Shown: positions 1 through 46,387 of the stretch, piece by piece
How the letters are laid out: the number at the start of each line of letters is the position of its first letter
Position numbering within the stretch: the first letter of the stretch is position 1
Origin: a virus
Lineage: Duplodnaviria; Caudoviricetes
Strand: one strand, 5' to 3'
IMG/VR virus record: IMGVR_UViG_3300033233_000046
Span: 1 to 56,599 of that record
Length of the DNA: 56,599 nt
Notes under the pieces: generated by a model
Seen by the model: the letters and a program-made list of their open reading frames with translations, nothing else
Database searches by the model: none
What the model was told of the DNA's origin: nothing
Made by a program: the position numbers and the translations under genes

Positions 1-197
1 GGCATATAGACGCTGCAGATGTATGCATTGGCCTCCTTCATATCAGTGATGCCAGCGGCGGCAAGTTCCTTGACAAGCCTCTCCTGATGGGTGCGGAAGG
101 CCCGCTCAGAGCGTCCCCTGGCCTCGGTCGGGGGAATAGGCGGGAATCATCTCAATCCCTAACTGTCGCATGGCACACCCGAACTGTGTGAAATTCT
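1..197. repeat. Terminal direct repeat, copy 1 (matches 56388-56580)
   Basis: Direct comparison: identical except the extra TCGG and A192 versus G. Confidence 0.95.
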
Positions 198-9415: not shown

Positions 9416-9937
9416 ATGGAGAAAGGTAGACACTCATATGGGACACCGATTATCAAGAGGTGGCATGACAGCGATGGAGATGTTACAATTGGTGCTTTCT
9501 GCTCGATAGGTGAGAACGTCCAGATATTTACAGGCGGCAATCACCGGACGGATTGGGTGTCTACCTTCCCATTTCCTGCTTTTTCTGAGTGGCCGGAAGT
9601 GCAGGGCAGAATTGATTATTGCCCGACAAAGGGAGATGTGGTGATCGGTAATGATGTATGGCTCGGTAACGATTGCCTTATACTCTCAGGGGTAACGATA
9701 GGCGATGGAGCAGTGATAGGCGCAAGGGCGGTAGTGGCGAAGGATGTTTCTCCCTACGGGATAGCCGTGGGGAATCCGGCAACGGTCAAACATTTGAGGT
9801 TTGCTTCTGAGGTGGTTGAGAAGCTGATGCGGATAAAGTGGTGGGAGTGGTCTGACGATAAGATACGGGAATATCTGCCGGACATTTTAAGCAGTGACGT
9901 AAGGGCTTTTATACGAAAGGTTGAGAATGCTTATTAA
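9416..9937 (+). CDS. CatB/Vat-family hexapeptide O-acetyltransferase
   Basis: IGAFCSIG, GGNHRTDWVSTFPF, IGNDVWLG, GVTIGDGAVIGA, WWEW. Confidence 0.92.
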   Translation: MEKGRHSYGTPIIKRWHDSDGDVTIGAFCSIGENVQIFTGGNHRTDWVSTFPFPAFSEWPEVQGRIDYCPTKGDVVIGNDVWLGNDCLILSGVTIGDGAVIGARAVVAKDVSPYGIAVGNPATVKHLRFASEVVEKLMRIKWWEWSDDKIREYLPDILSSDVRAFIRKVENAY

Positions 9938-11339
9938 CGAAAAGAAAGTAATGATAGCGACTCCCGCATATGAGATGAAAATGTTTTCTGCGTATTTGGA
10001 TACTCTCCTTACTTCTTTGAAGCTTCTCGACGGGATAGGGGTAAAGTATGTAACGTATTTCCTTCCTGGAGATTCTTATGTCCATAGGGCAAGGAATACT
10101 ATTGTCTCAGACTTTTACAAAAGTGACTGCACTGATCTTGTATTTATTGATTCAGATTTGACATGGCGGCCCAAAGACCTTGTAATGCTCATTGCCAATG
10201 ACGCTGAGGTCGTTGGCGGGGCTTATCCCTGCAAGAACCAATGGGACGATTGGGGAGTGAGAATATTTACCGACGAGAACGGGATTCCCGATGTAGACCC
10301 TCAAACGGGTCTAATCCGCGCTCAAATGGTTCCTACGGGCTTTATGAAGATAACCAGAAGGGCAATAGACAGAATGATTGAAACATATCCCGACCTCTGG
10401 TATTGGGCGAAGGTAGAAGTCGGAGAGCCTAAAAAACAATTTGCTTTCTTTAACCATCTTCCGGTTGAGGAATCCCATATATTTACCGGAGAGGATGGGA
10501 GTTTTGTTCATAGGTACAATGCAGCAGGAGGCGACTTATGGCTTATGCCCGATGCTACATTTGAGCATTATGGAATTAAAGAATGGAGGGGGAATTACCA
10601 TGAGTACCTTTTAGCTTGTCCGGGAGGTTCAAAAAGTCCTGAATCTGATAACCCGTTAGTCAGTGTAGTGATTGTTAGCTATGGGAATTATGAGTTCATA
10701 GGGGAGTGCATTAAGAGTGTATTGAATCAGACTTACAGAAACATTGAAATTATAGTTATGGACAATAATGAGGATGAAAGAATTCAACAGGCAATAGAGC
10801 ATTTTCCTGTCAGAATAATAAAGACAGCCAATGAGGGTGTTTCGGCAGCGAGGAATAAAGGAATAGCAACGGCAAGTGGGATATGGATATGTTGTCTGGA
10901 CGGTGACGATAAGATACATCCGTCATATATAAAAAGCTGTATTCAGAATAGTAAGGGATTTGATATTGTTAGTTCATGGATGCAACAGTTCGGGGGTGGG
11001 GATAAAGTATTTTCAACCGCAATCAATCCGGAGCATAAGGATTTTCTTACAGCGAATAGAATTCATTGCGCCTCTCTTTTCAAGAAAGAAGTCTGGTCTA
11101 GTATTGGTGGATATGATGAAGGATTGGGGGGAGTCCCATATACGGGATATGAAGACTACGATCTATGGTTAAGGGCTACCGACGATGGTTATAGGGTCAA
11201 TGTAGTGCAACAGGCCCTTTTCTATTGGAGAAAGCATGATGGACAAATAACTTCGATTATGAACCATGAGGAGATGTGCAGAAAGGTTTTGACTAAGAAT
11301 GGAGTGAAACAGGAGACACAATGCGCTTTAGTGAATTAA
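9927..11339 (+). CDS. Two-domain GT-A glycosyltransferase (phage-type GT + GT2)
   Basis: Domain 1: VMIATPAY, RARN, FIDSD, GED. Domain 2: VSVVIVSY, QTYRNIEII, SAARNKG, LDGDD, EDYDLWLR. Confidence 0.9.
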   Translation: MLINEKKVMIATPAYEMKMFSAYLDTLLTSLKLLDGIGVKYVTYFLPGDSYVHRARNTIVSDFYKSDCTDLVFIDSDLTWRPKDLVMLIANDAEVVGGAYPCKNQWDDWGVRIFTDENGIPDVDPQTGLIRAQMVPTGFMKITRRAIDRMIETYPDLWYWAKVEVGEPKKQFAFFNHLPVEESHIFTGEDGSFVHRYNAAGGDLWLMPDATFEHYGIKEWRGNYHEYLLACPGGSKSPESDNPLVSVVIVSYGNYEFIGECIKSVLNQTYRNIEIIVMDNNEDERIQQAIEHFPVRIIKTANEGVSAARNKGIATASGIWICCLDGDDKIHPSYIKSCIQNSKGFDIVSSWMQQFGGGDKVFSTAINPEHKDFLTANRIHCASLFKKEVWSSIGGYDEGLGGVPYTGYEDYDLWLRATDDGYRVNVVQQALFYWRKHDGQITSIMNHEEMCRKVLTKNGVKQETQCALVN

Positions 11340-12439
11340 TAAGCAGGCTAGCGAGATTTTTGCATAAAATAAACGACATAGACATTGTTCAGACATGTGG
11401 CCCAGCAAAAGGAACGGGTGCTCATACTCTCAAGACGACAAGGGCTATTGTCTATAATCTTCTTAATCAGCAGTTCACTCTGGCCATTACAGATAATATT
11501 GCCATGACTGTCTGTGCTCTACAGGCATCAAGTACCTTCTGTTATTACCTCGTCTCAGTTGATTCTGCTGGTCTTGTCACTGTTACAAAAGGGACAGACA
11601 ATCAGTATGCACTTCCCGCAACTCCCGATTGGGCCATTCCGATAGGGGCGTTTCTCGTAACGGTAGACGGTTCTCATACCTTTACTTCAGGGACGGATAC
11701 TCCCGGAACTAATAACACCACTGTTTTTTTTGATATTGACACTGGCATAGCGGCCTCTCTTGTAAATGATTGTATGAGGAAATTAGAGCGGGGGATAGTA
11801 GTTCCCCTCAATAATCAGTCAGTGAGGATTTCTAACTTTGACCACATGAGGGCAAGGGTTCAGGTAACACTTAACGCTGGGGATTATTTGATAACCAACC
11901 CATTCCCGACATACAAGGAACTTATCGTTGCTCAGATTATGGATAGCAACGGATTTGTGTGGCCCAGCCTTACAAGAGCAGGATTCGATAACGCAATGAG
12001 TCTGTATCCGAGTTTTACACAAAATAAACAGAGGCCAGTATTAATTTCAAGAGTTCCGGCTATTCAGACTTCTTTGACTCCTGAAACGGTAGATACGGTC
12101 AATTTCGTTCTTAGACCGACAGCGGATACTACATACACGCTTGATATGCAAGCCTATCAATACAGTCCTCCGCTTGATGGAGTTATTTACTCAACAAATT
12201 GGTGGACGGAGAACGCACCTGAGGTCTTACTCTATGGTGCGCTTATGGATGCTGCACCCTATCTGTTGAATGATGAGCGGATCGCCATATGGAAATCCCT
12301 CTATGCCGATGCGGTAGCGGGGCTGGTATCTTCTCAGAGACTTGAGAAGTATGCGGGAAGTAAACTTAATATTGGATTCGATAACCCTCTTAATAGAGGA
12401 TATTACGATATTTACTCAGACACTTATGGAGGTGTTTAA
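11321..12439 (+). CDS. Head-to-tail adaptor protein with extra inserted domain
   Basis: C-terminal TNWWTENAPEVLLYGAL...PYLLNDERIAIW resembles podovirus adaptors. Confidence 0.7.
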   Translation: MRFSELISRLARFLHKINDIDIVQTCGPAKGTGAHTLKTTRAIVYNLLNQQFTLAITDNIAMTVCALQASSTFCYYLVSVDSAGLVTVTKGTDNQYALPATPDWAIPIGAFLVTVDGSHTFTSGTDTPGTNNTTVFFDIDTGIAASLVNDCMRKLERGIVVPLNNQSVRISNFDHMRARVQVTLNAGDYLITNPFPTYKELIVAQIMDSNGFVWPSLTRAGFDNAMSLYPSFTQNKQRPVLISRVPAIQTSLTPETVDTVNFVLRPTADTTYTLDMQAYQYSPPLDGVIYSTNWWTENAPEVLLYGALMDAAPYLLNDERIAIWKSLYADAVAGLVSSQRLEKYAGSKLNIGFDNPLNRGYYDIYSDTYGGV

Positions 12440-12805
12440 ATGAAAAAGGTATTGGTATTTCTAGTAATGGCACTATTGATAATTCCTTCAATAGTATTTG
12501 CAACTAATTTTGAGACTCTTTCCCCGACAACGAGCACGGCGATACCTTTTACGGCTAATCAAATTACTCCACCGGGAACGGGAATGAATGCCCAAAAGGC
12601 TTTTTGTACGGTTGAGACGTATGCAATCCGCTATACGTCTGATGGCGTAACTACTCCTACATCTACGGTAGGACATTTGGTGGCTACAGGTAATTTCTTT
12701 TGGGTAAGTTATGGGGACGTTCATAATTTTAAAATGATAGGGATAAGTGGCACTGCAAAAGTCTCATGCAGTTATTTCTTTGAACTTCATACGGCAATGG
12801 AGTAA
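12440..12805 (+). CDS. Virion-region beta-rich protein with signal peptide
   Basis: MKKVLVFLVMALLIIPSIVFA leader; IRYTSDGVTTPTSTVG motif; 2 Cys. Confidence 0.7.
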   Translation: MKKVLVFLVMALLIIPSIVFATNFETLSPTTSTAIPFTANQITPPGTGMNAQKAFCTVETYAIRYTSDGVTTPTSTVGHLVATGNFFWVSYGDVHNFKMIGISGTAKVSCSYFFELHTAME

Positions 12806-12809
12806 AACA

Positions 12810-13355
12810 ATGAAAAGAATAATCCTTTTAATTTTAGCTATTGTCTCTATACCTGCGTTTGCATTAGCAGGTGGAGGTAACGGAAGTTTTGGTCCAGGCG
12901 ACCCTCCCGGTACTGCTGCCAGTCTAATTTCTGATACCATCTTCGGGGCTGGCTGGAATGGGGTAACGACAATAGCACCCTCTCAAAATGCAGTTTATGA
13001 CCAGATGATTTTGAAAGCTACTATAGATGCACCTACCTTTACGACTTCCGTAACGTCATCTAACGCTATTATTAGTCAAACACAGACGAGCTTACCGACT
13101 TGCGCTTGTAGTGGTGGTGGAGCCTGCGCTCTTGTAACGGGAGATACGGATGAGAGTGGTACAATGACCTGTTCTGCCGGAGGCAGTTCAACTACAGCAA
13201 CCCTTACGTTTAATCTCACTCACGGTAAGGCTCCTGTATGTATGGGACTGTTACATGATGGAGCTATTGCTTATAACTCAACGAGAAGCACAACCGCTCC
13301 AGTATTGACTTTCTCAGCGAAAACAAACCCTACTATTGATTATATTTGCAGATGA
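12810..13355 (+). CDS. Short fibre-like protein with signal peptide
   Basis: MKRIILLILAIVSIPAFALA leader; WNGVTTIAPSQNAVYD fibre module; 6 Cys. Confidence 0.7.
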   Translation: MKRIILLILAIVSIPAFALAGGGNGSFGPGDPPGTAASLISDTIFGAGWNGVTTIAPSQNAVYDQMILKATIDAPTFTTSVTSSNAIISQTQTSLPTCACSGGGACALVTGDTDESGTMTCSAGGSSTTATLTFNLTHGKAPVCMGLLHDGAIAYNSTRSTTAPVLTFSAKTNPTIDYICR

Positions 13356-13708
13356 TAGACCAGGAACTTAAAGATTACGTTAATCATGAAATAGAGACAG
13401 CGTTTTTAGCTGTACCGGAACTTGTCTCTAAACTTTTTATAGAGAGAATGGCAATGCGAGAATTGGCTAAAAAGTTTTATGATAACAATAAGGAGTTTAA
13501 AAAGCATGGCGATATTGTAGCCTCGGTGCTTGAAGAAATCGAGGGCAAAAATCCCGGCAAGAAGTATGCTGACCTTTTAGTAGAATCGGTTCCGATTATT
13601 CAGAAGCGGATCGCCTTAATAGAAGGGTTAGACACAACTGATGGAGTTACTAAGCCTGAAGATTTACGCATCTATGAATCGGATGTAAGCAATCACGGAA
13701 TCCTATGA
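13352..13708 (+). CDS. Hypothetical protein
   Basis: ATGA coupling on both sides. Confidence 0.65.
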   Translation: MIDQELKDYVNHEIETAFLAVPELVSKLFIERMAMRELAKKFYDNNKEFKKHGDIVASVLEEIEGKNPGKKYADLLVESVPIIQKRIALIEGLDTTDGVTKPEDLRIYESDVSNHGIL

Positions 13709-14262
13709 AGACATTTGCATATCCTATAACAACGCATCTCGGTAAGGGATTAAGGCAGAGGCAGAATACCCGCAATCAACCTTATCTTGTGGAAGCCATC
13801 GGGTGCTTCCCCTATGAGGGCGTACTAGAGGCTGTAGAGCAGTTTTCGAGGGTAGATACGTCTGCTCTTGCCTGTTCGTTCCCTTATCCTCAGATATTTG
13901 TTCTGAGTAACTGTATCGTGGTATGTACCTTAACTTCATTGTTTGAACTTGTGAACGGTTCTTTAGTTACAAAAGCATCGAATATTCCTCCCGGTCTTAC
14001 ATGGGATGTTGTTGACTTCAAGACATTCCTTTACCTAACAAATGGGCAAGTAGCCATTACAAAGAACTATCAGACAGGAGCTTATGCGCAGGATTCTTCA
14101 CTCCCATTCGGAACTTGTCTATGTAATTTTAACGGACAGGTGTTTATAGGAAGCCCGAACATTAAAGCTAGTTTTACTTCAGCGGGTGAGGTTTTACAGA
14201 CAGAAGCAGGAATAGATATAACAACAGAAGGCGGGGAACCGATTATCGCCTTTCCTACTTAA
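13705..14262 (+). CDS. Putative tail nozzle/stabilisation protein, N-terminal part
   Basis: Beta-propeller-like strands (CLCNFNGQVFIG); C-terminal LQTEAGIDITTEGG motif. Confidence 0.45.
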   Translation: MKTFAYPITTHLGKGLRQRQNTRNQPYLVEAIGCFPYEGVLEAVEQFSRVDTSALACSFPYPQIFVLSNCIVVCTLTSLFELVNGSLVTKASNIPPGLTWDVVDFKTFLYLTNGQVAITKNYQTGAYAQDSSLPFGTCLCNFNGQVFIGSPNIKASFTSAGEVLQTEAGIDITTEGGEPIIAFPT

Positions 14263-14275
14263 TAAGGAGAACTGA

Positions 14276-16735
14276 ATGAAAAGAATACTACCATTAATTA
14301 TCGCCCTTTTAATGACTGCAAATGTGGCTTATGGAGTTACGATATGCGAGCTCCCTACAGATAGTTCCCTGACTCTTTTTGATTGGCTCCCCATATCGAG
14401 GGCTGCATGTGGCCCTACTGACAGCATGAAGATAAACATAGGGCAAATATGTACTGTTTGCGGTGTAACGCTTACTCCCGTAACGAGCGTATATGGTAGA
14501 ACAGGGACAGTTACCGCTCAAGCAGGCGATTATACTTTTGCTCAATTAGGTAGTAAGCCGACCACTATTGCAGGATTTGGTTTGACCGATGCCGCTCCAA
14601 AGGCATCTAAATATATAGTACAGGGGACAAGTGATAGCGAACTGACTGGTGCTCAGTTTCTAGGTGCTCTTGCAAGCGGGATACTCAAGAATACGACTTC
14701 AACGGGAGTTTTGGCGAGGGCTATCCCCGGAACCGATTATGCTGTTTCAACAAGTGGCTCTTCAATATTGAAAGGAGATGGGATGGGAGGCTTTAGCAGC
14801 ACGACAGCCGAAACGGATTATTCTAATCCTCTTACCTTCAATTCCCCGCTTTCCAGAACTACAAATGCGATTTCTCTTACGACAGTGGGAGTAGCACTCG
14901 GTGGAACGGGGATAACCTCTGCGGCTGCTGATGCTGCGATAATGGGTGGTGGAGGGACTTCGGTATTTGTGGTCAAGGCTATGCCGACAGGTGGTACAAA
15001 CGGATGTTCAGGAACACTAGACAAGCTACTCTATAACACGACTACTCATGCTTTTTCTTGTGGGGCAGACCAAACGGCTGCCGGTGGGTCAGGTATAACA
15101 ACTCTGAATACCCTTACTGATAGCACTCAGACTTTTGCAGTAGGGACAACAGGAACGGATTTTACAATTTCATCGGCTACAGCGACTCACACCTTTAACA
15201 TCCCGACTGCTTCAGCATCGAATAGAGGACTGCTTTCTACCTCCGACTGGACAAAATTCAATGGGAGCATATCAGCTTATCCGGGAGCAGGGATAGGAGT
15301 TTCTACAGGTTCAGCATGGGGGACTTCAAAAGCTACGCCATCGGGTGTTATCGTAGGCACAACCGATACGCAAACGCTTACAGCTAAGAAGATAACACAT
15401 GCCGCAGGATCGAATGGAGCGGGGCTTGCTCCTCTATATTTGACTTCAGGCCCAGTTCTTGATACCCCTGAAGCGGGAGCGGTTGAGTTTCTAACCGATA
15501 CCCTTTCTTTTACCATCACCACAGGCCCCACCAGAAAGACGGTTGCCTTTACCGATAGTAACATAACTGGAACTGCCTCGAATGTGTCTGGCACTCCGGC
15601 CTTGCCTAATGGTACGACTGCTACAACGCAATCGGCAGGAGATAATAGCACTAAGATAGCCACTACATCCTTTGCGGATGCCCTTATAAGCGATACGGTT
15701 TTTGGTTCAGGCTGGAATGGGGTAACAGGGATAGGCCCTTCCAAGAATGCAGTTTATGACCAAATGGTATTATTGGCTCCTTTAGCGGGGCCGACATTCA
15801 CCGGAACGGTCACGGTTCCTACGCCTTTTACTATCGGGGCTGTCTCTATGACAGCGACGGGAACGCAGCTAAATTATTTAAATGCAGCCACAGGAACGAC
15901 AGGGACGGCAAGCACTAATCTTGTTTTTTCTGCATCACCGACATTCACCACGCAGATAATCTCTCCCTTAGTAATTGGAGCCACAGGAAGCGCGGGTACT
16001 TTAACTCTTGAATCCACTTCTCATGCAACTAAAGGCAAAATTCTCTTCGGAACTTCAGGATACGATGAAGTTAACAATAGATTAGGCATCGGACAGACAA
16101 CCCCCACCGCAGCCCTTCATTTAAAGGCTGGAACTACCACAGCCAGTACCGCACCCCTGAAGTTCACCTCCGGTTCTCTTCTGACTACCGCAGAGGCAGG
16201 AGCAGTAGAATTTCTTACTGATGCCTTTTACGGGACAATCACCACAGGAGCGGCAAGGAAGACATTTGCATTCCTTGATAGTAACATTACAGGTACAGCA
16301 GCTAATGTATCTGGAACGCCTGCGTTACCAAACGGAACAACAGGCACTACTCAGGCTGCTAGTGACAATTCAACAAAACTGGCAACTACAGCATATGTTG
16401 ACATCAATGCTCCTGTAGTGGACTCTGCAAACGGTGGAACTATCACAGCCCGTAATGGATACCATATCACCACAGGCGCAACGACATGGACGCTTCCTGC
16501 CACGACACCGGGGTATCAGCATTGTTTTAGACAGGCCGATGCGGCTACGAATGCGATTTCAATAACGCCTCCGACCTCCTCTTATGTCGAGGCCGCTAAC
16601 GGAAGCGCATATTGCACCGTAGGCCATGCGATAAAATCAGGTGGGGCAAATGGCGATTCTATCTGCTATGTGGCAATAGATACTACTCATTGGATGGTGT
16701 TCGGAGGGGCGAATGGTTCATGGACTTGTCAATAG
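14276..16735 (+). CDS. Modular tail-fibre-like protein with signal peptide
   Basis: Thr/Gly/Ala-rich; VTSVYGRTG, VALGGTG, NRLGIGQTTP, DNSTKLATTAYV modules; leader MKRILPLIIALLMTANVAYG; 10 Cys. Confidence 0.85.
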   Translation: MKRILPLIIALLMTANVAYGVTICELPTDSSLTLFDWLPISRAACGPTDSMKINIGQICTVCGVTLTPVTSVYGRTGTVTAQAGDYTFAQLGSKPTTIAGFGLTDAAPKASKYIVQGTSDSELTGAQFLGALASGILKNTTSTGVLARAIPGTDYAVSTSGSSILKGDGMGGFSSTTAETDYSNPLTFNSPLSRTTNAISLTTVGVALGGTGITSAAADAAIMGGGGTSVFVVKAMPTGGTNGCSGTLDKLLYNTTTHAFSCGADQTAAGGSGITTLNTLTDSTQTFAVGTTGTDFTISSATATHTFNIPTASASNRGLLSTSDWTKFNGSISAYPGAGIGVSTGSAWGTSKATPSGVIVGTTDTQTLTAKKITHAAGSNGAGLAPLYLTSGPVLDTPEAGAVEFLTDTLSFTITTGPTRKTVAFTDSNITGTASNVSGTPALPNGTTATTQSAGDNSTKIATTSFADALISDTVFGSGWNGVTGIGPSKNAVYDQMVLLAPLAGPTFTGTVTVPTPFTIGAVSMTATGTQLNYLNAATGTTGTASTNLVFSASPTFTTQIISPLVIGATGSAGTLTLESTSHATKGKILFGTSGYDEVNNRLGIGQTTPTAALHLKAGTTTASTAPLKFTSGSLLTTAEAGAVEFLTDAFYGTITTGAARKTFAFLDSNITGTAANVSGTPALPNGTTGTTQAASDNSTKLATTAYVDINAPVVDSANGGTITARNGYHITTGATTWTLPATTPGYQHCFRQADAATNAISITPPTSSYVEAANGSAYCTVGHAIKSGGANGDSICYVAIDTTHWMVFGGANGSWTCQ

Positions 16736-16742
16736 TGCATAT

Positions 16743-17345
16743 ATGAGAAGAATATTACTTAGTATAATAGCCGTTCTTTTATTGTCTTGTCCTGCCTCTA
16801 CCATGATGCTTGAAGGAATAGTTGGCGGAGGTGGGAGCTATGGCGTATTTTCACAAACTCTTAATATTGATAACGTTGGTTGGATAGGATACTCAGTAAG
16901 AACTAAAATCCCCTCCTCGGCTCTTTCTGCAAGCGCGTCTAAGGTATCTATAAGACTGGAAGCGGCTTCTACCGAAGGCATGAAAATCGTACAGTGTTAT
17001 ATTGGTCATGCTGCTGCGTCTGGTAATGCATGGAATTTTGACGGAGGACAGGTAAAAGTAACATTTGGTGGAGCAGATAATGGCACAATTACGGCCGGTT
17101 CTACATTAGAATCAGACACCGTAAGTTTTAATCTAGATAAAACTAAGGATCTAATCATAGCCTTCGATATTACCAATACGGACACAGCGAATGACTCTGC
17201 TAAAACAGCAGAGGGGGTATCGGGTCATTTTAAATATTCCAACCTCACAAGTGGAACTCTGCAAGCTCAGCTTACAGCACCGACAGGTTATGCAACAAAC
17301 ATCGGAGACGTGTACCTTGTTAATCGGATAACGGCACATAGGTAA
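16743..17345 (+). CDS. Fibre-associated beta-sandwich-like protein with signal peptide
   Basis: MRRILLSIIAVLLLSCPAST leader; position after fibre gene. Confidence 0.65.
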   Translation: MRRILLSIIAVLLLSCPASTMMLEGIVGGGGSYGVFSQTLNIDNVGWIGYSVRTKIPSSALSASASKVSIRLEAASTEGMKIVQCYIGHAAASGNAWNFDGGQVKVTFGGADNGTITAGSTLESDTVSFNLDKTKDLIIAFDITNTDTANDSAKTAEGVSGHFKYSNLTSGTLQAQLTAPTGYATNIGDVYLVNRITAHR

Positions 17346-17355: not shown

Positions 17356-20322
17356 ATGGGATTTACTTATACTCCGAACTTCAATCTTGCTAAACCGGAC
17401 TTTGGTGAACCGGGCACTAACTGGTGGACAAAGGTTAACGCTAATTTTGACGCTATAGACCTTGCTCTTATTTCAATCGGCGGTAGTGGTGCTATAACAT
17501 CGGTCTTTGGAAGAACAGGAGTTATAACTGCTCAGACAGGGGATTATACCGCTACTCAGGTGGGGGCGATACCTGTTGTCGGAGGAGCGGTTGCAGGGCA
17601 TATCCCTATCTTCTCAGGATCGGGTGTTCTAAGCGATTCAGGAGTGGTCTTTAGCAGGGCCGCAGGTTCAATTTATATAAATGATGTTACAGTTCAAGTT
17701 ACTCCAGTTCTTCCGTCAAATTCCGCTGCCACTAATACAGCGAATATTGCCTCTATAATAGCTGCGGCTGCTGATGGTACTACATTGTTTTTCCCTGAAG
17801 GAACATATGCTTTTGCGAAAAACGGAGGGAATGATTATGCCATACTAATTAATAAAAGAGTTAATATGCTTGGTGAAGGTTGGATGGGTACTAAACTTAC
17901 AATAAATACAAATGATTGTCATTTTATTAAAGTTGAGAATCCCAGGAGGGTAGGTGCTAATCAGATAGGTGGAGTAGATGAAACAATCTCTGATTGGGGG
18001 CCTAGGGTTGCGATAAAAATTTGCGAATTACAACTTGTAAGAACGGCACTTGAAGCTTACCAACCTAATAATACAATGAATAATTATTATTCCGGGTTAT
18101 ATCTTCATGGCTGTGCGTGGAGTACATTTGAGCGACTTGAATTTAGGAATTGTGGAATAGCTATACATGTTTATAACGGGACGGGAGATTTAGCAAATGG
18201 ATATTTTAATGTAGCCAATGATTACAGGCTTATTTTTGGTCATTTTTGTAGAGTGGGAGTGAAATATACTAATGGTGATACACACCAGACTGATAATAGG
18301 TGGAGTGACATTCTCATAATAGGTGACGCTACATACACCACAGATGGGACCGGGTATAATGCTGGTTTTTGGATAGAAGACGCTTGGGCCGGAGATGTAA
18401 TGATAAGAGATAGTATTTTTTTAAGATATGAAGAGGGTGTTCATATCGTTGCTACGGCCCCGAACTACTCTGCTAATGTTTGGCTTCATGATGTTTGGAT
18501 AGACGTTTTTAAAAATTACGGATTTAATATAGCTAACATGAATCTTATAAGCCTTAGTAAGTGTAATCCTGCTGCTCCTCTTGGAACAAATTCGGTAGGA
18601 ATATATTTGGCAAACTGTCATGGGGGCGATATAACAAAATGCTATATTCCAATAACGGCAAGTGGACATATGGGAATTCATGTAGTAGCTAGTTTAACGG
18701 GAGGACAGTCTTCATATAATCTTGCTTTTTCTCAGAATACTATTTCGGGAAGCACAGTAGTTGCTAATCAGGGCATTGGTTTTTTATCTAGGGGAATGTC
18801 AGTATCAAGTATTATTGGGAACAATATTTTGGGATGTTCAACCGGGATAAAGCTTGCCAGTGATAGCAACTCTATCCCTTCAGTACAAAACACCATTAAG
18901 GGCAATACCATTCATAATCAAATAAGTGGAAGTAATGCAATAGGTATTAGGTTTGATGATATAAATCAAAGCAATAATATATATCAGGGGAATATAGCTT
19001 ATTTAAAGGTTGGTGGAACACCAATACAAAATTATGGAACTAACAACATCATTAAAGACAACCAGCCGTATTCTGGAAGCGCAAGCGGGACGTTAAGATC
19101 AGCGACAAAAATAATAGCGGCCCATAACTCCATTGATACGACCTCTGCCGATTATATGTGTGATGGGACGAATGACGAAGTTCAGGTAGCTCAGGCCGTA
19201 GCAGATTTAGGAACCGTAGGCGGGGAAATTCTATTTCTAGAAGGTAATTACTACTATTCTGCTTCTGTAACCGTTAAGTCCAGCATAACATTCAAGGGTG
19301 TTGGTTCAGGATATGGCTGGTCCCCCGGTTCCGTCAACTTTTATCTCATGGCGAATGTTCCTATGTTTTATGGAGACGCTGATCTCGCTCCTTTTATAAT
19401 GAATGTGAACTTTGTTGATATTAACTTTGCCGCAAATGTGCAGACCGCTTCAGAAAAACCACCGACAGGAACAACCGCAAGGGATGTCTATCTTTTCCAA
19501 TTCATTAATAGGTGCAAAGAGTTCAGCTTTACAAGATGCACCTTTAAGTATGCAGGAGCGATTTATATTGACACCTGCTGGGATTTTACTTTTATGAATT
19601 GTACATGGCACTCTTACGGTAGTACATCTTATCCTGCAATCTGGCTCTATAATAATTACAGGGTTGGATTGCAAAATGATGCTATCTCGAATATGCACTT
19701 CATTGGCTGTCGATGGGAAACTGGAAATAATATAGCCATTTTACAGACCTCTCATGCAAGCAACCCCACGCAAAACGCAGTCGGGGTTGATCTGGTAGAT
19801 TGTAAGGTTGATAGCAGTAATTATGCGGTAATGTACGGCGGTTTTTATGGTGCAAGAATTACATCCAGTTCATTCTATAATACAACAAGTGGTCGAAGTA
19901 TGTTTGTTTTTCTTAGTGCTGGCACTAAGAATACTATCACGGGGAACATCTTTGAAGCCAATGCTGGCGCAGCTATCTATTTTAATTGTTGGGCAGTCAC
20001 AATAACAGGCAATGTATTTTCTGGAGCACAGACCGGACTTTATATTGATACCGGTACAGGTGCTGCCAATTCAGTAATAAGCAATAATGTTTTTCTTACT
20101 GCTCAACAAGGTTCTATAAATATAAAAGGTGGCTATATTCAAATTATGGGAAATGTCTTCAACGGAAGTGTTGCGACTAACGACATAAGACTGGAATCTA
20201 CTTCGAGTTATAATTTCCTTATCGGCAATAACGGGTATAGTTCAACAGGTGGTTGGTCTATTTATTCAGATGCTGGTTCAAATAATAAGAAGCATTTCAA
20301 CACTGGAGATGGAGACCTGTAA
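17356..20322 (+). CDS. Tailspike / depolymerase with right-handed beta-helix domains
   Basis: TPNFNLAKP head, TLFFPEGTY and GGEILFLEGNY pectate-lyase-like starts, IxGN repeats. Confidence 0.85.
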   Translation: MGFTYTPNFNLAKPDFGEPGTNWWTKVNANFDAIDLALISIGGSGAITSVFGRTGVITAQTGDYTATQVGAIPVVGGAVAGHIPIFSGSGVLSDSGVVFSRAAGSIYINDVTVQVTPVLPSNSAATNTANIASIIAAAADGTTLFFPEGTYAFAKNGGNDYAILINKRVNMLGEGWMGTKLTINTNDCHFIKVENPRRVGANQIGGVDETISDWGPRVAIKICELQLVRTALEAYQPNNTMNNYYSGLYLHGCAWSTFERLEFRNCGIAIHVYNGTGDLANGYFNVANDYRLIFGHFCRVGVKYTNGDTHQTDNRWSDILIIGDATYTTDGTGYNAGFWIEDAWAGDVMIRDSIFLRYEEGVHIVATAPNYSANVWLHDVWIDVFKNYGFNIANMNLISLSKCNPAAPLGTNSVGIYLANCHGGDITKCYIPITASGHMGIHVVASLTGGQSSYNLAFSQNTISGSTVVANQGIGFLSRGMSVSSIIGNNILGCSTGIKLASDSNSIPSVQNTIKGNTIHNQISGSNAIGIRFDDINQSNNIYQGNIAYLKVGGTPIQNYGTNNIIKDNQPYSGSASGTLRSATKIIAAHNSIDTTSADYMCDGTNDEVQVAQAVADLGTVGGEILFLEGNYYYSASVTVKSSITFKGVGSGYGWSPGSVNFYLMANVPMFYGDADLAPFIMNVNFVDINFAANVQTASEKPPTGTTARDVYLFQFINRCKEFSFTRCTFKYAGAIYIDTCWDFTFMNCTWHSYGSTSYPAIWLYNNYRVGLQNDAISNMHFIGCRWETGNNIAILQTSHASNPTQNAVGVDLVDCKVDSSNYAVMYGGFYGARITSSSFYNTTSGRSMFVFLSAGTKNTITGNIFEANAGAAIYFNCWAVTITGNVFSGAQTGLYIDTGTGAANSVISNNVFLTAQQGSINIKGGYIQIMGNVFNGSVATNDIRLESTSSYNFLIGNNGYSSTGGWSIYSDAGSNNKKHFNTGDGDL

Positions 20323-23829: not shown

Positions 23830-24996
23830 ATGCCGATACCCGATATGCTTGATTCGATTCAGAGTTCATGGGGTGATATATTCAAGAATATTCAGCCTCC
23901 CAAAGCTACCGGTGCGTCTGGCGGGATCGGCAATATACAGGCGAATGTTGATATGCCTGGAGGATTTAGACCACCATCCGGTTCATTTGACAGGGCCGCT
24001 AACGTAGATTTCCCTGAAATGAAAGCTCCTTCTTATAGGGGGATAGAAGGCAATTCTTCTGTAGCGGGTATAAAACCTATGCAAAATCCTCAGTACCATG
24101 GGTTAAATGCTTATCCTACATTTGGAATAAAAGGAGCACCACCTACAGGAGCATTTGTAAAGACATTGGGTGGTATAGCCCATGCCTTAGCACCGAAGTC
24201 ATGGGGAGGAAGGCTCGGAAAGGAAATGGCAGGGCAGGTAGCAGAAGAGGAAGCTATGGCAACAAGCAGGGAGGATAAGAGGTTAGCCGAACTGTTTAGG
24301 CAGGATCGGTTAAGAGAAACACAAAAAAGGGATGAAGACACAGCGAGGCATCGGAGGGTGCTTGAAGGACAGGGCGATTTCAGATTAGGAGCAATGGTAG
24401 ACGCAAAACAAGCAGAAGCAGACAGGAAGGCTAGAGAAGAGGAGGCTAAACGTGTAGGCGGGGTATCCCTTGAAACGCTCAGGACTGTTCCTTCTGAATC
24501 ATTAGAGTTACCCACAGAGGGAGGGAGTACGATAAGGAAAGAGCTTGAAGGACAGGTAATGGAATCGGCAGCCTCAAGTCCCGGACTTCAGCATATGTTT
24601 AAGGCATATGAAGACAGGCAGTATCCCATAGTCAAAGAAAAGACCCCTCAGCGGATTACAGAGACAGACTGGATTGCTAAGGCAGCGCAAGGTGATCCTG
24701 AAGCGAAAAAGGTTGTCGGTGCGATTGAAGCACACAAAAGGGCCACCAAAGACCCTCGTAGGGATAGGTTTGTTACCGCTAGGAACAAAGACGGTGATTT
24801 AGTGCTTGTAGACATAGATAACCCCGGTGCGAATCCAAAGGTTATTGAAGGTGTTAAGAAGGATGCTCCCAAGAAAGGCAAGGAAGAGGGGGGATGGAGA
24901 AAGAAAAAAGACTTTAGTAAAAAATGGGGAGAGGAAGATAAAAAGATGATACAACAGGAAGATGATGATATTAGAAAAGCGTTAGGACTCAAATAA
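23830..24996 (+). CDS. Putative internal virion (ejection) protein
   Basis: Low-complexity charged helical protein between ejection-type genes. Confidence 0.55.
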   Translation: MPIPDMLDSIQSSWGDIFKNIQPPKATGASGGIGNIQANVDMPGGFRPPSGSFDRAANVDFPEMKAPSYRGIEGNSSVAGIKPMQNPQYHGLNAYPTFGIKGAPPTGAFVKTLGGIAHALAPKSWGGRLGKEMAGQVAEEEAMATSREDKRLAELFRQDRLRETQKRDEDTARHRRVLEGQGDFRLGAMVDAKQAEADRKAREEEAKRVGGVSLETLRTVPSESLELPTEGGSTIRKELEGQVMESAASSPGLQHMFKAYEDRQYPIVKEKTPQRITETDWIAKAAQGDPEAKKVVGAIEAHKRATKDPRRDRFVTARNKDGDLVLVDIDNPGANPKVIEGVKKDAPKKGKEEGGWRKKKDFSKKWGEEDKKMIQQEDDDIRKALGLK

Positions 24997-27900
24997 TGCC
25001 TAAAGCGTGGAAAGATATAGTTAATTCTCAAGATTATAAGGCGTGGAATCCTGAGAAAAGGGCTAGAGCACAGAATATCTACTTCGATGAGGTAGTGTCT
25101 GAGGGATTGTCCGATGAAGACAAGGCACAGGCGAAAGCTCAGTTCTTTAAGGCATATCCACCGCCTAAGCCTCCGGGCATTGTGGATAAGGCTATTGATG
25201 TTGTGAAAGATGTTCCTCGTTCTGTCAAAGCCTATGGTTCTCAGACCGTTGCATCTTTAATGGAAGGTGCAGCCGGATTTGGAGAGAAACTTTCGGGAGC
25301 ATCCGATTATATAGCCGACAGAACAGGGTTATATGATTTAGGTGAGAAAATCGGCATCCCAAGAACAAGCGGATTAACAAAAGAGATGGTAGAGGGCTCG
25401 AAGGGTCTGGCAACATCAACAAGAAAAATGGCTGAATCTATTCCCTCAACTCCCATAGAACGTTTCGTTGGTGGTGCTGCCGGAGGTGCTTTGCCGGGGA
25501 TTACCGAGTTTGTAACCGAGAAGGGCATGCCTCCTCTTGCTTATGTCATGGGTGCGTCAGAAGCAAAGAAAAAGGGCGAATCGGAAGTCCTGGGAGGATT
25601 AGGAGAGGCAGGACGCATCGGTTTACTTAGTAAAGCCTTTGGTGCTACTGCTCCACTAAAAAGAGGACTTAGAATGCTAGCACAGGGAGTAGTAATGGCT
25701 ACCGGATCGCCAGAAGGACCGACACCTGAAGCCTTTGGTACAGGTATGCTCTATGGGATGTTTGGGGGGAAGGGGGAGATAGGGTTAAGGGGTATGGCTA
25801 AAAAGCCTTCAGTTCCGTGGGAAGAGTTTGGGGATATACCGAAGGACCCGACTAAACCTTTCAGCAAGGAAGAAATTAAGTCTATCAATGCCATTAAGCC
25901 GACAGAAGGCGAAGGGATAGCGTCTAAAATACCACCTGAACAGCCCCCAATTAAGCCTGAGGGGGTAATAGAAGCATTAAAACCACAAACAGAGGGTGTT
26001 GACCGCAGGGCTGCTATGCGTCCCTATCTGCCGGACTTCACTGTTGAGCAACTTCAGGAAATGAAGCGGACGAATGAGGAAGGGTGGGCCGACAAACCGA
26101 CTACCGACCCATACGAAATACGCAAGAGAGACAGGCAGAGGGATGAACTCGATAAGATAATCGTTAAAGCTGGTGGCAGGGCCGAGAAAGAGATCGAAGA
26201 GCCGCCGATGCCTGAATTTAAAAAGAAATATCAGAAAAAGGAGGGAGTAACAATTGAGCAAGATAAGAGTGCAACCGAAGCCGAAGCCACAACCGGAGGA
26301 CGAGGGGCAGGTACAGAGGTTCGGGGAGAAGTAATACAGGTTGATAAAGTGATGTCACCAGAAGAGGGAAAAGCTTTACTTACATCTGAGACAGCTAAAG
26401 AACCCGTGAAGAAGGCAACACAAAAGGACATGTTCGGGGCTACACAGGGGGGGTTAGAGGGCAAGATACCCTCAACTGAGACCCCTGAGACACCCCTTGA
26501 GGCCGCACAGAGGGAAGCACAGGCCCGTAAGGTACAGGCAGAGGAAGCGAAGGCGCAACAGGCACTACCGACAGAACCATTAACCCCAAAAGCTAAGGCT
26601 ACCATTCAGGATTCGTTCGACAATGGCCTCACTGTCAGCCTGAAAAACCTGCGGGAATCGGATAAGCGAACAATCACAAAGGGAGAGATACGACAAATAT
26701 ATGAGGTAAAGTCCAGACAAACTACCGCTCCTGAGATGATAGAGAAGCTGAAGGGGGAAGGGTTTAAGATAGGGAAGAGTGTTGAGCTTTATTCTGGTAT
26801 TCCGGTAGATGAGATAGTGAGGTCTGTCAAGGCATTTAAAGAGAGCATTTTTGACCCCGTTAAGGCTTTTTGGTCAAGACCGCCCAAGGCAAGCGAAGGT
26901 AAAAATATCATTGGTAAATATTTGGGAGATGCGCAGCAATATCAGTGGCGATTAAGCAGGTTTGCTAATGCAATACAGAAGGAAATACCAAAGCTCGACC
27001 AACAGGCTATGAAGCGTTGGATGCAGGCGGGGGGAGATGAAGCTACCCTCAGACAATGGGCTACTCAAATGAAAGACCCTGAGCTGAAGAAGATTTACGA
27101 GAGAGCTTTGAATCTACCCGAACAAGCCAAAGAAATCGCGCGTCAGTTAGAAGTAGGATACGCTGAGGGTGCAGAGGAAATGATTAAGTCTGGTATTCTG
27201 GAAGATACTGTTGAGTTCTATGTTAATAAGAATTGGGATAGACCGAACAAGGCTAGTCAGAAACTTCAAGCGTGGGCTAATGCTACGAGTACTGGCAAAT
27301 TCAGACCAGACCCTAAAGAAGCCAAACACAGGATATGGAAGTCTAATTTCGAGGGAGAACAATTAGGGTATAAAGAGAAGAACGATTCTATAGGGTTTGC
27401 TTATGTTAAGTGGATGTCTTCAATGGCAGATGCTAAATCTACCAGAGAAGCCCTTAAATCAATGATGTCAGCTAAAATGCCAGATGGAAGACCAATGGTA
27501 TATGTAGGCGGTGGGGGAAGTTACGTACCGAAGGAACTGCAAGCCGAAAGAGAAGCTTATTTCATAAAGCCCAATGCAAAACCTGAAGCAGCGTATGATT
27601 ATAAATCCTTTGATCACCCAGCCTTTAGAAAATGGAAATGGGTGGATAGCGATCCCGAAGGCAAGCCGATTATGGTACAGGGGAATATGCTCATACACCC
27701 TGAAGCCTACAAGCAGATTAACGCCATGATCGGGAAGTCAAAGATTAGAACATATACCATTCCTGAAGATGTTCCCATTGTCGGCGGTAAGCAACCTGGA
27801 CGGATGTTATTAGATGCGGGGGCTTTTGTAAAGGGAACTATTCTTGTCGGTCCCTTCCATCAGGTTCATGTAGGGGAACACGCCTTATTTCATAAGGTCA

Positions 27901-35772: not shown

Positions 35773-36006
35773 ATGATTGAGAACGCAGGGTATGGGGCAG
35801 GAGGTGGTATAGTAGGAGCTATAGCAATGTGGCTGGGTTTTAAGCAGAGATTAGATAGGGTTGACAAAGACATCCAATTTATTAGAGAGGGAGTTGTTTG
35901 GAAAGATACGTGTGATGCTCTCCATGAGGCTACGTTACAACGGTTAGATTCTATTGATAAAAACCTTAGAACTCTTCTAGAAAGAAGGATTGAACCCCGG
36001 CAATGA
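35773..36006 (+). CDS. Single-TM coiled-coil protein (holin/antiholin-like)
   Basis: N-terminal TM then coiled coil, before endolysin. Confidence 0.55.
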   Translation: MIENAGYGAGGGIVGAIAMWLGFKQRLDRVDKDIQFIREGVVWKDTCDALHEATLQRLDSIDKNLRTLLERRIEPRQ

Positions 36007-46064: not shown

Positions 46065-46387
46065 ATATTAGGCATGGAGATTTAGTACTTATCGGAATTG
46101 AGAAATTGCCAGAAGGACTCACGGCTACGGAAGCAACGGTAATTATGAAGGGTAGCGGAGGGAATGACCACACAGTTGTGAAGGGTGTGATCTATCCGAA
46201 TGCTGATAGGCAATTTATTGTCGGCTATTTGGAAGCGAAAAGAGGTTGCAGACTTCTTCATCCCGAACATGGGAAAAACAGAAAGATAAGTGGCGATTTG
46301 CGCATAGTTCGCATCCCCCAAGGATTCTATGAGTTGCGCAGGCAGTCAGAAGATACCCACAATGGCATGGTGAAGGTGGTGGACTGA
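46061..46387 (+). CDS. Conserved-type small 'R(Q/H)GD' His-motif protein
   Basis: IRHGDL, GGNDH, LLHPEH, GFYELRRQSE; upstream of the repeat protein. Confidence 0.7.
   Translation: MNIRHGDLVLIGIEKLPEGLTATEATVIMKGSGGNDHTVVKGVIYPNADRQFIVGYLEAKRGCRLLHPEHGKNRKISGDLRIVRIPQGFYELRRQSEDTHNGMVKVVD

What the first reader, a model, noticed from the sequence alone, without database searches (positions are those of the whole stretch)
12440..17345. Four tail-region proteins, including an 819-aa fibre, have Sec-type signal peptides, three with even Cys counts
Seen: MKKVLVFLVMALLIIPSIVFA (12440), MKRIILLILAIVSIPAFALA (12810), MKRILPLIIALLMTANVAYG (14276), MRRILLSIIAVLLLSCPAST (16743), all with basic-hydrophobic-small-residue layout. 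The first three have 2, 6 and 10 Cys. The neighbouring tailspike, adaptor and coat have no leader. Known: tailed phages normally assemble in the cytoplasm. Inference: a fibre sub-assembly is exported, disulfide-folded in the periplasm and docked at lysis (which could also hide it from cytoplasmic defences), or it acts as a secreted receptor blocker. This is the strongest candidate for an undescribed system here.
Basis: partly seen in the sequence, partly recalled or inferred. Interest (0 to 1): 0.85.

Follow-up and report, generated by a model that had tools for sequence, protein, structure and literature searches.

The report
Exported, disulfide-bonded phage fibre-module proteins
Four genes in the tail-fibre module of an uncultured tailed phage carry secretion leaders, and their relatives gain paired cysteines whenever they gain a leader, which suggests that part of this phage's fibre set is folded outside the cytoplasm.

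Summary
Genes at 12440, 12810, 14276 and 16713/16743 begin with textbook secretion leaders, and Shine-Dalgarno sites sit directly in front of them. The coat, the 372-aa adaptor-like protein, genes C and D, and the tailspike have no leader.

The leaders look functional on comparative grounds:
- **Protein A family.** A belongs to a large family of ~100-aa jelly-roll proteins found in phage structural modules. Of 146 representatives, 57 of 84 with a leader have a Cys pair at two fixed positions, against 2 of 62 without a leader. In 52 matched pairs the split was 32 to 0.
- **The 819-aa fibre.** Its closest mosaic relatives all carry leaders and keep its Cys pairs. Leaderless relatives of the same module have no Cys there.
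- **Other phages.** Leader-bearing copies sit beside capsid, adaptor and terminase genes in other viral contigs. One of these contigs is syntenic with this window.

Export and oxidative folding are therefore well supported. Where the proteins end up is not settled. They may dock on virions after lysis, which I favour at about 0.45, or act on the cell envelope without joining the virion. Five literature searches found no description of this.

The parts
12440..12805 (+). Gene A, 121 aa. Leader is residues 1-21 (VFA|T). The mature ~100-aa part is a jelly-roll with Cys56 and Cys110.
   Evidence: Sequence. SD GGAGG upstream. Cleavage by my heuristic. 502 relatives at E<=1e-3. Alignment-based AF2 model with pLDDT 91.5: helix 2-13, first strand 21-27. 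Leader/Cys-pair covariation in the family. It is the only family member in the six-frame translation of the window.
12810..13355 (+). Gene B, 181 aa, a 'mini-fibre'. Order: leader 1-20 (ALA|G), Gly-rich linker, a fibre motif shared with E, then a C-terminal domain with 6 Cys.
   Evidence: Sequence. SD GGAG upstream. 68% identity over 47 aa to E residues 467-513. The 6-Cys C-terminal domain recurs in P0275 and P0276.
13346..13708 (+). Gene C, 120 aa, no leader and no Cys. Context gene inside the cluster; function unknown.
   Evidence: no family hit and no leader.
13705..14262 (+). Gene D, 185 aa, no leader, 6 Cys. Context gene; possibly related to P22 gp10-type 'phage stabilisation' tail proteins. 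This is a lead only.
   Evidence: Atlas feature score 0.93 to viral clusters in which 58-59% of members carry PF11134; structure row TM 0.52. No Pfam or PHROG hit of its own.
14276..16735 (+). Gene E, 819-aa mosaic tail-fibre protein. Leader 1-20 (AYG|V). Cys at 24, 45, 59, 62, 244, 262, 750, 780, 797 and 818.
   Evidence: Sequence. SD AAGGAG upstream. 477 fibre-type relatives at E<=1e-3. Best mosaic relatives P0003, P0004 and P0006 all carry leaders. Cys pattern across relatives.
16713..17345 (+). Gene F, 210 aa from 16713 or 200 aa from 16743. The leader ends in LLSC (lipobox-like) or SCPA|S. The mature part is a beta-sandwich of a viral family.
   Evidence: Sequence. SD GGAGG precedes 16713. 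Public gene call of 210 aa. Weak match to phrog_3545, E 2.3e-6. Atlas: 189-aa viral clusters at score 0.91, and TM about 0.8 to a non-catalytic domain of GDSL-esterase proteins.
11321..12439 (+). Context: 372-aa leaderless adaptor-like virion protein directly upstream of A. The pairing 'this protein, then an A-family gene' is conserved.
   Evidence: phrog_2941 'virion structural protein', E 8.2e-13. The L208 homologue (42.7% identity over 351 aa, E 8.7e-94) is also followed by a leader-bearing A-family gene.
17356..20322 (+). Context: 988-aa leaderless tailspike with a beta-helix; probably the main cytoplasmically made receptor-binding protein.
   Evidence: PF05048 NosD, E 3.5e-11. No leader. 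Shares a 27-aa fibre motif with E.

Best explanation
A, B and E are fibre-module proteins made late in infection with cleavable Sec leaders. F has either a lipoprotein leader or a Sec leader. The proposed path has three steps.

1. **Export (supported by comparison, about 0.8).** Host Sec moves the proteins into the periplasm and the leaders are cut off. For A the cut falls exactly where the folded jelly-roll begins.
2. **Oxidation (supported by comparison, about 0.75).** The Cys pairs are oxidised there: one pair in A, probably three in B and five in E. The result is disulfide-stabilised, carbohydrate-binding or fibre-type proteins.
3. **Docking (inferred, about 0.45).** Capsid, adaptor, hub and tailspike are built in the cytoplasm. 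The exported accessory fibre set meets the particle only when holin, endolysin and spanin-type lysis merges the two compartments, and it binds then. This would resemble the way free fibres and decoration proteins of other phages bind finished particles in vitro.

This phage would therefore be the exported variant of a fibre module that most of its relatives make without leaders and without disulfides.
For: **Leaders and starts.** Canonical n/h/c layout, with SD sites in front of the leader-encoding starts.

**Family A.**
- Among 146 cluster representatives, Cys at A-positions 56 and 110 co-occur: both 59, neither 66, one only 21.
- The pair is present in 57 of 84 leader-bearing members and 2 of 62 leaderless members (Fisher p 3.8e-17).
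- In 52 leader/leaderless pairs matched at 40% or more core identity, only the leader-bearing partner has the pair in 32, the reverse holds in 0, and 20 are ties (sign test p 4.7e-10).
- Leaderless members have V/I/L and V/A/I at those two positions.

**No linker in A.** In the model the first strand starts at residue 21, right at the predicted cleavage site. That leaves no linker for an uncleaved anchor.

**Family E.**
- 32 leader-bearing relatives have a median of 6 Cys; 81 leaderless ones have a median of 2 (p 2.9e-5).
- In the middle module, C244 and C262 are kept in leader-bearing P0003, P0004 and P0055.
- Position 262 is Cys in 5 of 7 leader-bearing relatives that cover it and in 0 of 11 leaderless ones.
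- All four C-terminal Cys are kept in leader-bearing P0006.
- P0003 has a leader directly followed by Mtd_N, a fibre N-terminal domain (E 2.9e-14).

**Points favouring a virion role.**
- E has the modular repeat make-up of long tail fibres and still shares modules at 65-80% identity with leaderless fibres.
- A occupies the conserved slot adaptor-like protein, then A, then a fibre-like gene.
- A is the only copy in the window, and the record's ends overlap, so the genome is probably whole.
- L208 has the same synteny with a leader-bearing copy.

**The family is phage-borne.**
- 82 ORFs found in 80 viral loci by one narrow DNA motif.
- No ~100-aa member in 802 sampled bacterial genomes of two phyla.
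Against: - There is no direct evidence of export, cleavage, disulfides or virion presence. Everything here is comparative.
- SignalP was not available. Leader calls rest on my own heuristic and a hydrophobicity threshold.
- The tree-based test of covariation had no power: only 2 independent pairs lay on supported branches. The matched-pair test is not strictly independent of phylogeny.
- The top-150 list is biased towards leader-bearing members, because the query itself has a leader and the Cys pair.
- 27 of 84 leader-bearing members lack the pair.
- No role in the virion is known for any leaderless A-family member: 0 of 80 members hit a PHROG, and three tblastn searches of GenBank phages found no match.
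- Docking after lysis has to compete with dilution.
- The phage already has a leaderless tailspike, so the exported set is not needed for adsorption.
- If F is lipid-anchored, it fits a virion role poorly.
- My impression that the mature N-terminus of E resembles the canonical fibre N-terminus was not confirmed by an HMM.
Confidence: 0.45

Rival explanations
1. The proteins are exported but do not join the virion. Fibre-type and lectin-type proteins act in the periplasm, in the outer membrane or in the lysate. They could mask the receptor or its precursors (superinfection exclusion), keep progeny from sticking to debris, or bind polysaccharide matrix. F would be an outer-membrane lipoprotein of this kind.
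For: Export and oxidation are supported as above. Leader-bearing genes inside tail-fibre modules have a precedent in T5 Llp and in Cor of phi80 and N15 (recalled, not tested here). F has a lipobox-like LLSC and lies between the fibre and tailspike genes. The phage has a leaderless tailspike that could serve adsorption alone. In L171 and L239 three small leader-bearing genes, one of them A-like, lie next to a small membrane protein and an endolysin-like gene; I identified those two by eye.
Against: A blocker does not need an 819-aa fibre with shaft modules. A replaces the leaderless orthologue in its slot, and no second copy remains for a structural role. Leaderless family members cannot reach the envelope before lysis, so the function shared by the whole family is more likely exercised after release.
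Confidence: 0.33
2. The N-terminal helices are uncleaved signal-anchors. They tether the proteins to the inner membrane, either as an assembly platform or as a sensor, with the folded parts facing the periplasm.
For: The hydrophobic stretches of 13-16 residues could span much of a membrane. Signal-anchor-release proteins are known among phage lysis proteins (recalled).
Against: Small residues at -3 and -1 follow the h-region in A, B and E and in the 84 of 150 family-A listings that my scorer flags. In A the fold starts at the cleavage site with no linker. Leader sequences in alignment A1 are not conserved apart from their hydrophobicity, as expected of cleaved signals.
Confidence: 0.08
3. The genes are lysogenic-conversion cargo ('morons'). 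They would be host-surface adhesins or envelope proteins expressed from a prophage and merely located in the tail region.
For: Lom and Bor of lambda are leader-bearing genes in or near tail genes (recalled). Mtd-like exported lipoproteins of diversity-generating retroelements also exist (recalled). P0003 combines a leader with Mtd_N.
Against: The genes share the strand with the structural operon, are tightly packed in it and have late-gene-type SD sites. No integrase was seen among the ORFs I scanned, though not all were scanned. The A family was not found as a ~100-aa gene in 802 sampled bacterial genomes, so it is not typical prophage cargo. No template/variable repeat pair was found.
Confidence: 0.07
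4. The proteins are not exported. The hydrophobic N-termini are structural (a trimer core or a membrane-inserting tip used at infection), or translation starts further downstream.
For: No export assay exists. Hydrophobic segments do occur in ejection proteins (recalled).
Against: SD sites sit in front of the leader-encoding starts. The covariation of leader with Cys pair in two families would have no explanation. The leaders have the charge, length and -3/-1 pattern of secretion signals.
Confidence: 0.05

Closest known systems
T5 Llp and the Cor lipoproteins of phi80, N15 and T1 (recalled from the literature; no sequence compared here)
   Same: These are leader-bearing genes placed beside receptor-binding genes of tailed phages. 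They are exported through host pathways and act on the cell envelope.
   Different: They are small proteins that do not resemble fibres. Here the exported genes are a full-length 819-aa fibre, a mini-fibre and two beta-sandwich proteins, and their families also exist in leaderless form in the same gene slot. Homology was not tested.
Coat proteins of filamentous phages (Inoviridae pIII and pVIII; recalled)
   Same: They are virion proteins with cleavable leaders that fold in the periplasm; pIII also forms disulfides there.
   Different: Those virions are extruded through the envelope. This phage has a portal, a P22-type coat, a tailspike and an endolysin, so its particle is built in the cytoplasm and released by lysis.
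Exported Mtd-like variable proteins of diversity-generating retroelements (Legionella LdtA, Treponema TvpA; recalled)
   Same: A phage receptor-binding-type protein is fused to an export or lipoprotein leader. The mosaic relative P0003 has a leader followed by Mtd_N.
   Different: No reverse transcriptase was seen among the ORFs I scanned, and no template/variable repeat pair was found. E itself has no Mtd_N hit.
PblA and PblB of Streptococcus mitis phage SM1 (recalled)
   Same: These are tail-fibre-like proteins that work outside the virion after release from the cell.
   Different: They have no Sec leader and leave the cell through holin and lysin action. The host is a monoderm.
Disulfide network of Agrobacterium phage Milano (PMC10811340; search listing and start of abstract only)
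   Same: Disulfides stabilise the tail parts of a tailed phage.
   Different: As far as the abstract goes no export is involved. It shows that virion disulfides can form without a leader, so Cys content alone does not prove periplasmic folding. The covariation with leaders is the new point here.
Signal-peptide and SAR endolysins, and spanins (recalled; spanin passages read in PMC3556154)
   Same: They are late phage proteins that use host Sec and lipoprotein pathways. The window has two lipoprotein-like ORFs near its endolysin.
   Different: Those are lysis functions and are not fibre-module families.

Membership tests
Sec (signal peptidase I) signal peptide: A, B, E | Positively charged n-region, an uncharged hydrophobic h-region of about 8-16 residues, and small residues at -3 and -1 | tested here: met
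   My own scorer gives MKK/h16/VFA for A, MKR/h16/ALA for B and MKR/h15/AYG for E. This is a heuristic, not SignalP.
Sec (signal peptidase I) signal peptide: A, B, E | Translation really starts at the leader | tested here: met
   GGAGG, GGAG and AAGGAG lie 7-8 nt upstream of the three ATGs. This is sequence evidence only.
Sec (signal peptidase I) signal peptide: A, B, E | Export and cleavage demonstrated | not testable with these tools
   Needs PhoA or BlaM fusions and N-terminal proteomics. The only indirect support is leader/Cys-pair covariation.
Bacterial lipoprotein signal (signal peptidase II): F | Lipobox [LVI][ASTVI][GAS]C at the end of the h-region | tested here: inconclusive
   F has L-L-S-C. 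Position -2 is Leu, outside the common set as I recall the consensus. An alternative type I site, SCPA|S, also scores.
Phage tail fibre (mosaic, repeat-built): E and B | Shares fibre repeat modules with known or annotated tail-fibre proteins | tested here: met
   477 relatives at E<=1e-3. Some are named tail fibre (P0014). Listed precomputed Pfam domains include PF18454 (confirmed as Mtd_N on P0003) and PF18338 (confirmed as BppL_N on P0016). B shares 68% identity over 47 aa with E.
Phage tail fibre (mosaic, repeat-built): E and B | Canonical N-terminal virion-attachment domain | tested here: not met
   An HMM built from 10 leaderless fibre N-termini does not hit E at E<=10, and E has no Pfam hit. 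The relative P0003 does have Mtd_N after its leader.
Phage tail fibre (mosaic, repeat-built): E and B | Present in the virion | not testable with these tools
   The phage is uncultured and no proteome is available.
A-family: ~100-aa jelly-roll proteins of phage structural modules (unnamed; defined here by alignment A1) | Sequence membership and fold | tested here: met
   A scores 1.3e-41 against the A1 HMM, which was built from an alignment that includes A itself. 502 relatives. Model pLDDT 91.5. 39 matches in BFVD at E<=1e-3, mostly ~100-aa uncharacterised Caudovirales proteins.
A-family: ~100-aa jelly-roll proteins of phage structural modules (unnamed; defined here by alignment A1) | Gene slot between an adaptor-like gene and a fibre-like gene | tested here: met
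   Window: 372-aa protein, then A, then B. L208: homologue of the 372-aa protein, then an A-like gene. L023: 203-aa protein, two A-like genes, then a 1322-aa fibre. The neighbour table covers 62 distinct members.
Pfam CHB_HEX_C_1 / Fn3_assoc | Hit above the curated threshold | tested here: inconclusive
   A itself has no hit. 22 of 80 family members hit CHB_HEX_C_1 (best E 3.4e-6) and 7 of 80 hit Fn3_assoc.
Llp/Cor-type superinfection-exclusion lipoprotein: F | Small outer-membrane lipoprotein encoded next to the receptor-binding gene that blocks the receptor | tested here: inconclusive
   Adjacency is met. The size does not fit as I recall the family: mature F is about 185 aa. The lipobox is ambiguous. 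Homology was not tested and the function cannot be tested here.
Diversity-generating-retroelement target protein | Reverse transcriptase plus a template/variable repeat pair | tested here: not met
   The only direct repeat touching the region is the 110-nt B/E motif at 70% identity. No reverse transcriptase appeared among the ORFs scanned with Pfam, but not all ORFs were scanned.

The most novel reading that the evidence does not exclude
Two-compartment assembly of a tailed phage. The head, adaptor, hub and tailspike are built in the cytoplasm, while an accessory fibre and adhesin set (A, B, E and perhaps F) is exported by Sec and disulfide-bonded in the periplasm. It joins the particle only when lysis merges the compartments. 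The route would be widespread: 84 of the 150 best cluster representatives of the A family carry leaders, and leader-bearing fibre-module runs occur in unrelated viral contigs (L074, L039, L086, L171).
Probability: 0.35. Interest if true: 0.87.

Novelty: new variant of a known kind. Interest (0 to 1): 0.68.

Why it matters
Tailed-phage particles are taken to be assembled wholly in the cytoplasm, so secretion leaders predicted on tail proteins are usually ignored as noise.

- **What is new.** Two fibre-module families switch together between 'no leader, no disulfide' and 'leader plus disulfide'. This suggests that some phages really route part of their host-recognition set through the periplasm.
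- **If the proteins end up on virions.** That would be a new assembly step. It would also offer a natural way to put disulfide-rich binders, and possibly periplasmically modified ones, on phage particles. Phage engineering and display could use this.
- **If they do not end up on virions.** They would be a new, large class of fibre-derived exported factors, acting in superinfection exclusion, receptor masking or adhesion.
- **In either case.** It changes how such genes should be annotated, and it gives simple bench tests: leader fusions, dsbA dependence, and particle proteomics of a cultured relative.

Tried and rejected
**Searches for close relatives of the phage or of the four genes.**
- IMG/VR and metagenome scans with E, P0006, the 372-aa protein, F, B, P0129 and P0131 returned only motif-level matches or nothing.
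- The one true relative, L208, came from a degenerate DNA motif scan.
- F has no relative of similar length, only itself.
- B has 6 relatives besides itself.

**Known-phage and family searches.**
- tblastn of A and of two leaderless family members against GenBank phages found no match.
- PHROGs hit 0 of 80 family members.

**Structure and complex predictions.**
- The single-sequence fold of F had pLDDT 50.6 and was not used.
- Complex prediction of the 372-aa protein with mature A gave no answer (score 0.00). This is evidence neither for nor against binding.
- Fold searches for A give only a generic jelly-roll or cupin fold. The PM2 spike P1 match has Z 8.1, in the range the tool calls common. 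Matches to Ena pilus subunits have TM about 0.4. I assign no function from these.

**Tests that failed or lacked power.**
- An HMM of canonical fibre N-termini does not hit E, so I dropped my by-eye similarity.
- The tree-based independent-pairs test had no power.

**Host and cluster look-ups.**
- The motif scan of bacterial genomes gave 6 family members, all leaderless.
- 802 genomes of two phyla gave only weak partial matches inside very long frames.
- The cluster look-up gave no informative names.

**Calls that returned errors.**
- Alignments A1 and A2 were too variable for the search for related loci.
- Metagenome loci are not held for the genome search.

**Literature.** Five full-text searches and passages of four papers found no description of Sec-exported tail-fibre proteins in tailed phages. 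The library holds open-access papers and bioRxiv only, and supplements were not consulted.

Full report
**What the window is.** The window is one whole IMG/VR virus record of 56,599 bases. Nearly all long ORFs are on the + strand. Bases 1-197 recur at 56388-56580, so the genome is probably complete, although the record is classed as linear and 72% complete.

Genes identified:
- a portal (phrog_1216);
- a P22-type coat (PF11651, E 3.3e-36);
- a hexapeptide acetyltransferase-like gene and a gene with a GT2 domain plus an N-terminal half that matches phrog_1574;
- a 372-aa 'virion structural protein' (phrog_2941);
- a beta-helix tailspike (NosD);
- an endolysin (phrog_315) with two lipoprotein-like ORFs nearby.

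Those lipoprotein-like ORFs point to a diderm host. That is my inference.

**The observation.** The four N-termini are present as quoted.
- N-terminal hydrophobicity maxima are 3.1-3.5 for A, B, E and F. They are at or below 1.0 for the coat, the 372-aa protein and the tailspike.
- My rule-based scorer (not SignalP) places type I cleavage after VFA (A), ALA (B) and AYG (E).
- Shine-Dalgarno sequences precede these starts.
- For F the good Shine-Dalgarno site precedes 16713, and a public gene call uses that start. Its leader ends in LLSC, a lipobox-like site, or alternatively SCPA|S.
- C and D, which lie between B and E, have no leader.
- In the window 9 of 77 ORFs are flagged. Four of them fall within six consecutive genes (P 1.2e-3 for one given run, about 0.09 after correction).

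**What the proteins are.**

*E* is a mosaic tail fibre.
- It has 477 relatives at E<=1e-3, most matching short repeat modules.
- It shares a motif with B (68% over 47 aa) and with the tailspike (63% over 27 aa).

*A* had no Pfam or PHROG hit, but an exhaustive HMMER search found 502 relatives.
- An alignment of 80 of them (A1) gave a confident model: pLDDT 91.5, a leader helix at 2-13, then a jelly-roll whose first strand starts at residue 21.
- Foldseek against viral models found 39 matches at E<=1e-3. Most are ~100-aa uncharacterised Caudovirales proteins, and one is the C-terminus of a protein named tail fibre.
- Matches to solved structures are generic cupin or jelly-roll folds.
- 22 of 80 members weakly hit CHB_HEX_C_1.

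*F* resembles 189-aa viral proteins and a non-catalytic domain found next to GDSL esterases.

*D* may be related to P22 gp10-type proteins. This is a lead only.

**The A family is a phage structural-module family.**
- A1-profile searches of 99 viral records found leaderless members in three. In the two whose ORFs I listed, one lies directly upstream of the fibre gene (L023) and one two genes downstream of a fibre-like gene (L040). In the third, coordinates place two copies directly upstream of the fibre match.
- A degenerate DNA motif for DGTxPTxx[VI]GH pulled 82 stretches from IMG/VR.
- In the 80 loci I read, 82 ORFs hit the A1 profile, representing 62 distinct proteins.
- The usual order is an adaptor-like protein of about 180-220 aa, then A (often in 2-3 tandem copies), then a Gly/Ser/Thr-rich fibre-like protein.
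- No ~100-aa member turned up in 401 + 401 sampled genomes of two bacterial phyla.

**Leaders occur on phage-borne members.** Six distinct leader-bearing proteins occur in eight viral loci. Their contexts come:
- In L208 the order is coat, enzyme genes, a homologue of the window's 372-aa protein (42.7% over 351 aa, E 8.7e-94), then a leader-bearing A-like gene. This is the same synteny as the window.
- In L171 and L239, three consecutive small leader-bearing genes follow the major capsid gene.
- In L231 and L182 the leader-bearing copy lies beside the terminase gene.

Other viral contigs have runs of leader-bearing fibre-module genes:
- L074: tape measure, 1113 aa, 231 aa, then leader-bearing proteins of 110, 270 and 538 aa;
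- L039: two leader-bearing proteins;
- L086: two leader-bearing proteins.

Among 79 5'-complete fibre ORFs in viral loci, my scorer flags 8.

**The key test: do leaders go with paired cysteines?**

*Family A* (146 representatives, after dropping the query itself and three long proteins):
- Cys at A-positions 56 and 110 co-occur: both 59, neither 66, only one 21.
- The pair is present in 57 of 84 leader-bearing members and 2 of 62 leaderless members (Fisher p 3.8e-17). One of those 2 has a borderline leader.
- An earlier, cruder count of any two or more Cys gave 62 of 80 against 8 of 58.
- Relatedness inflates such tests. A FastTree on about 90 core columns is poorly supported, and the formal independent-pairs test had only 2 usable pairs, so it had no power.
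- As a substitute I matched each leader-bearing member to its nearest unused leaderless member at 40% or more core identity, with the Cys columns left out. Of 52 pairs, the leader-bearing partner alone has the Cys pair in 32, the reverse holds in 0, and 20 show no difference (p 4.7e-10).

*Family E*:
- 32 leader-bearing relatives have a median of 6 Cys, against 2 for 81 leaderless ones. Five were ambiguous and one was skipped (p 2.9e-5).
- In the middle module, C244 and C262 are kept in leader-bearing P0003, P0004 and P0055.
- Position 262 is Cys in 5 of the 7 leader-bearing relatives that cover it and in 0 of the 11 leaderless ones.
- The C-terminal domain, with all four Cys, recurs at 86% identity in leader-bearing P0006.
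- The three closest mosaic relatives match E only in the middle or C-terminal part, not at the N-terminus, yet all have leaders. In P0003 the leader is followed directly by Mtd_N.

**Reading.** A hydrophobic N-terminus that varies in sequence, ends in a -3/-1 site at the edge of the fold, and is gained or lost together with a Cys pair in two separate families is what a real export signal into an oxidising compartment should look like. I put export at about 0.8 and oxidative folding at about 0.75.

The destination is open. For docking on the particle after lysis:
- E has the modular repeat make-up of long tail fibres and still exchanges modules with leaderless fibres;
- A replaces the leaderless orthologue in its slot and is the only copy in a probably complete genome.

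For a non-virion role:
- there is the precedent of leader-bearing genes in tail modules (recalled);
- the tailspike has no leader;
- F may be a lipoprotein;
- docking would have to compete with dilution.

I favour docking at about 0.45 against about 0.33.

**Limits.**
- There is no wet evidence and no SignalP run.
- The leader classes come from my own thresholds.
- The 150 listed representatives are biased by a query that itself has the leader and the Cys pair.
- The virion role of leaderless A-family proteins is unknown.
- Virion disulfides can also form without export in a tailed phage (PMC10811340, listing and abstract only).
- Five literature searches found no prior description, but they cover open-access papers and bioRxiv only.

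Noticed in passing
window 1-197 and 56388-56580: The two ends of the record repeat each other: 127 nt at 100% identity, then 70 nt at 99% with a 4-nt offset. The genome is probably complete (circularly permuted or terminally redundant), although the record is classed as linear and 72% complete.
   Followed up: partly
window 46368-47549, inside ORF 46389-47882: There are 15 overlapping 300-nt copies at 63-nt spacing, i.e. a 63-nt (21-aa) tandem repeat across about 1.2 kb, most copies 92-96% identical to the reference. They lie in a 497-aa BspA-type leucine-rich-repeat protein (PF13306, E 2.4e-55) with 19 Cys, located in the non-structural half of the genome.
   Followed up: partly
window 41795-41995, inside ORF 41497-42012: There are 5 overlapping 69-nt copies at 33-nt spacing, i.e. 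a 33-nt (11-aa) tandem repeat. The function is unknown.
   Followed up: no
window 9416-11339; L208 (minus strand of the locus, ORFs between its capsid gene and its 345-aa protein): A hexapeptide acetyltransferase-like gene and a 472-aa protein with a GT2 domain lie between the coat gene and the adaptor-like gene. The syntenic relative L208 has a different set of enzyme-like genes in the same slot; one has a CxxxCxxC motif that I read by eye. L211 also has a GT-like gene near its A-like gene. The enzymes might modify virion or exported proteins, or the host envelope. This was not tested.
   Followed up: partly
window 35773-36006; L171 8989-9219: A 77-aa ORF with a Gly-rich membrane-like N-terminus lies two ORFs upstream of the endolysin. 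By eye it resembles the 76-aa ORF that follows the leader-bearing A-like gene in L171 and L239. It may be a holin. No alignment was made.
   Followed up: no
protein P0124: A 2258-aa leader-bearing protein matches residues 33-73 of A in 18 separate stretches. The central motif of A is therefore also used as a repeat in a giant secreted protein.
   Followed up: no
window 52131-53747: A 538-aa protein combines a Prim-Pol domain (E 7e-27) with a weak DnaB-like helicase C-terminal match. It is probably the replicative primase-helicase.
   Followed up: no
window 24996-29459: A 1487-aa ORF has no Cys and no Pfam or PHROG hit. From its position after the tail genes it may be an internal or ejection protein.
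   Followed up: no
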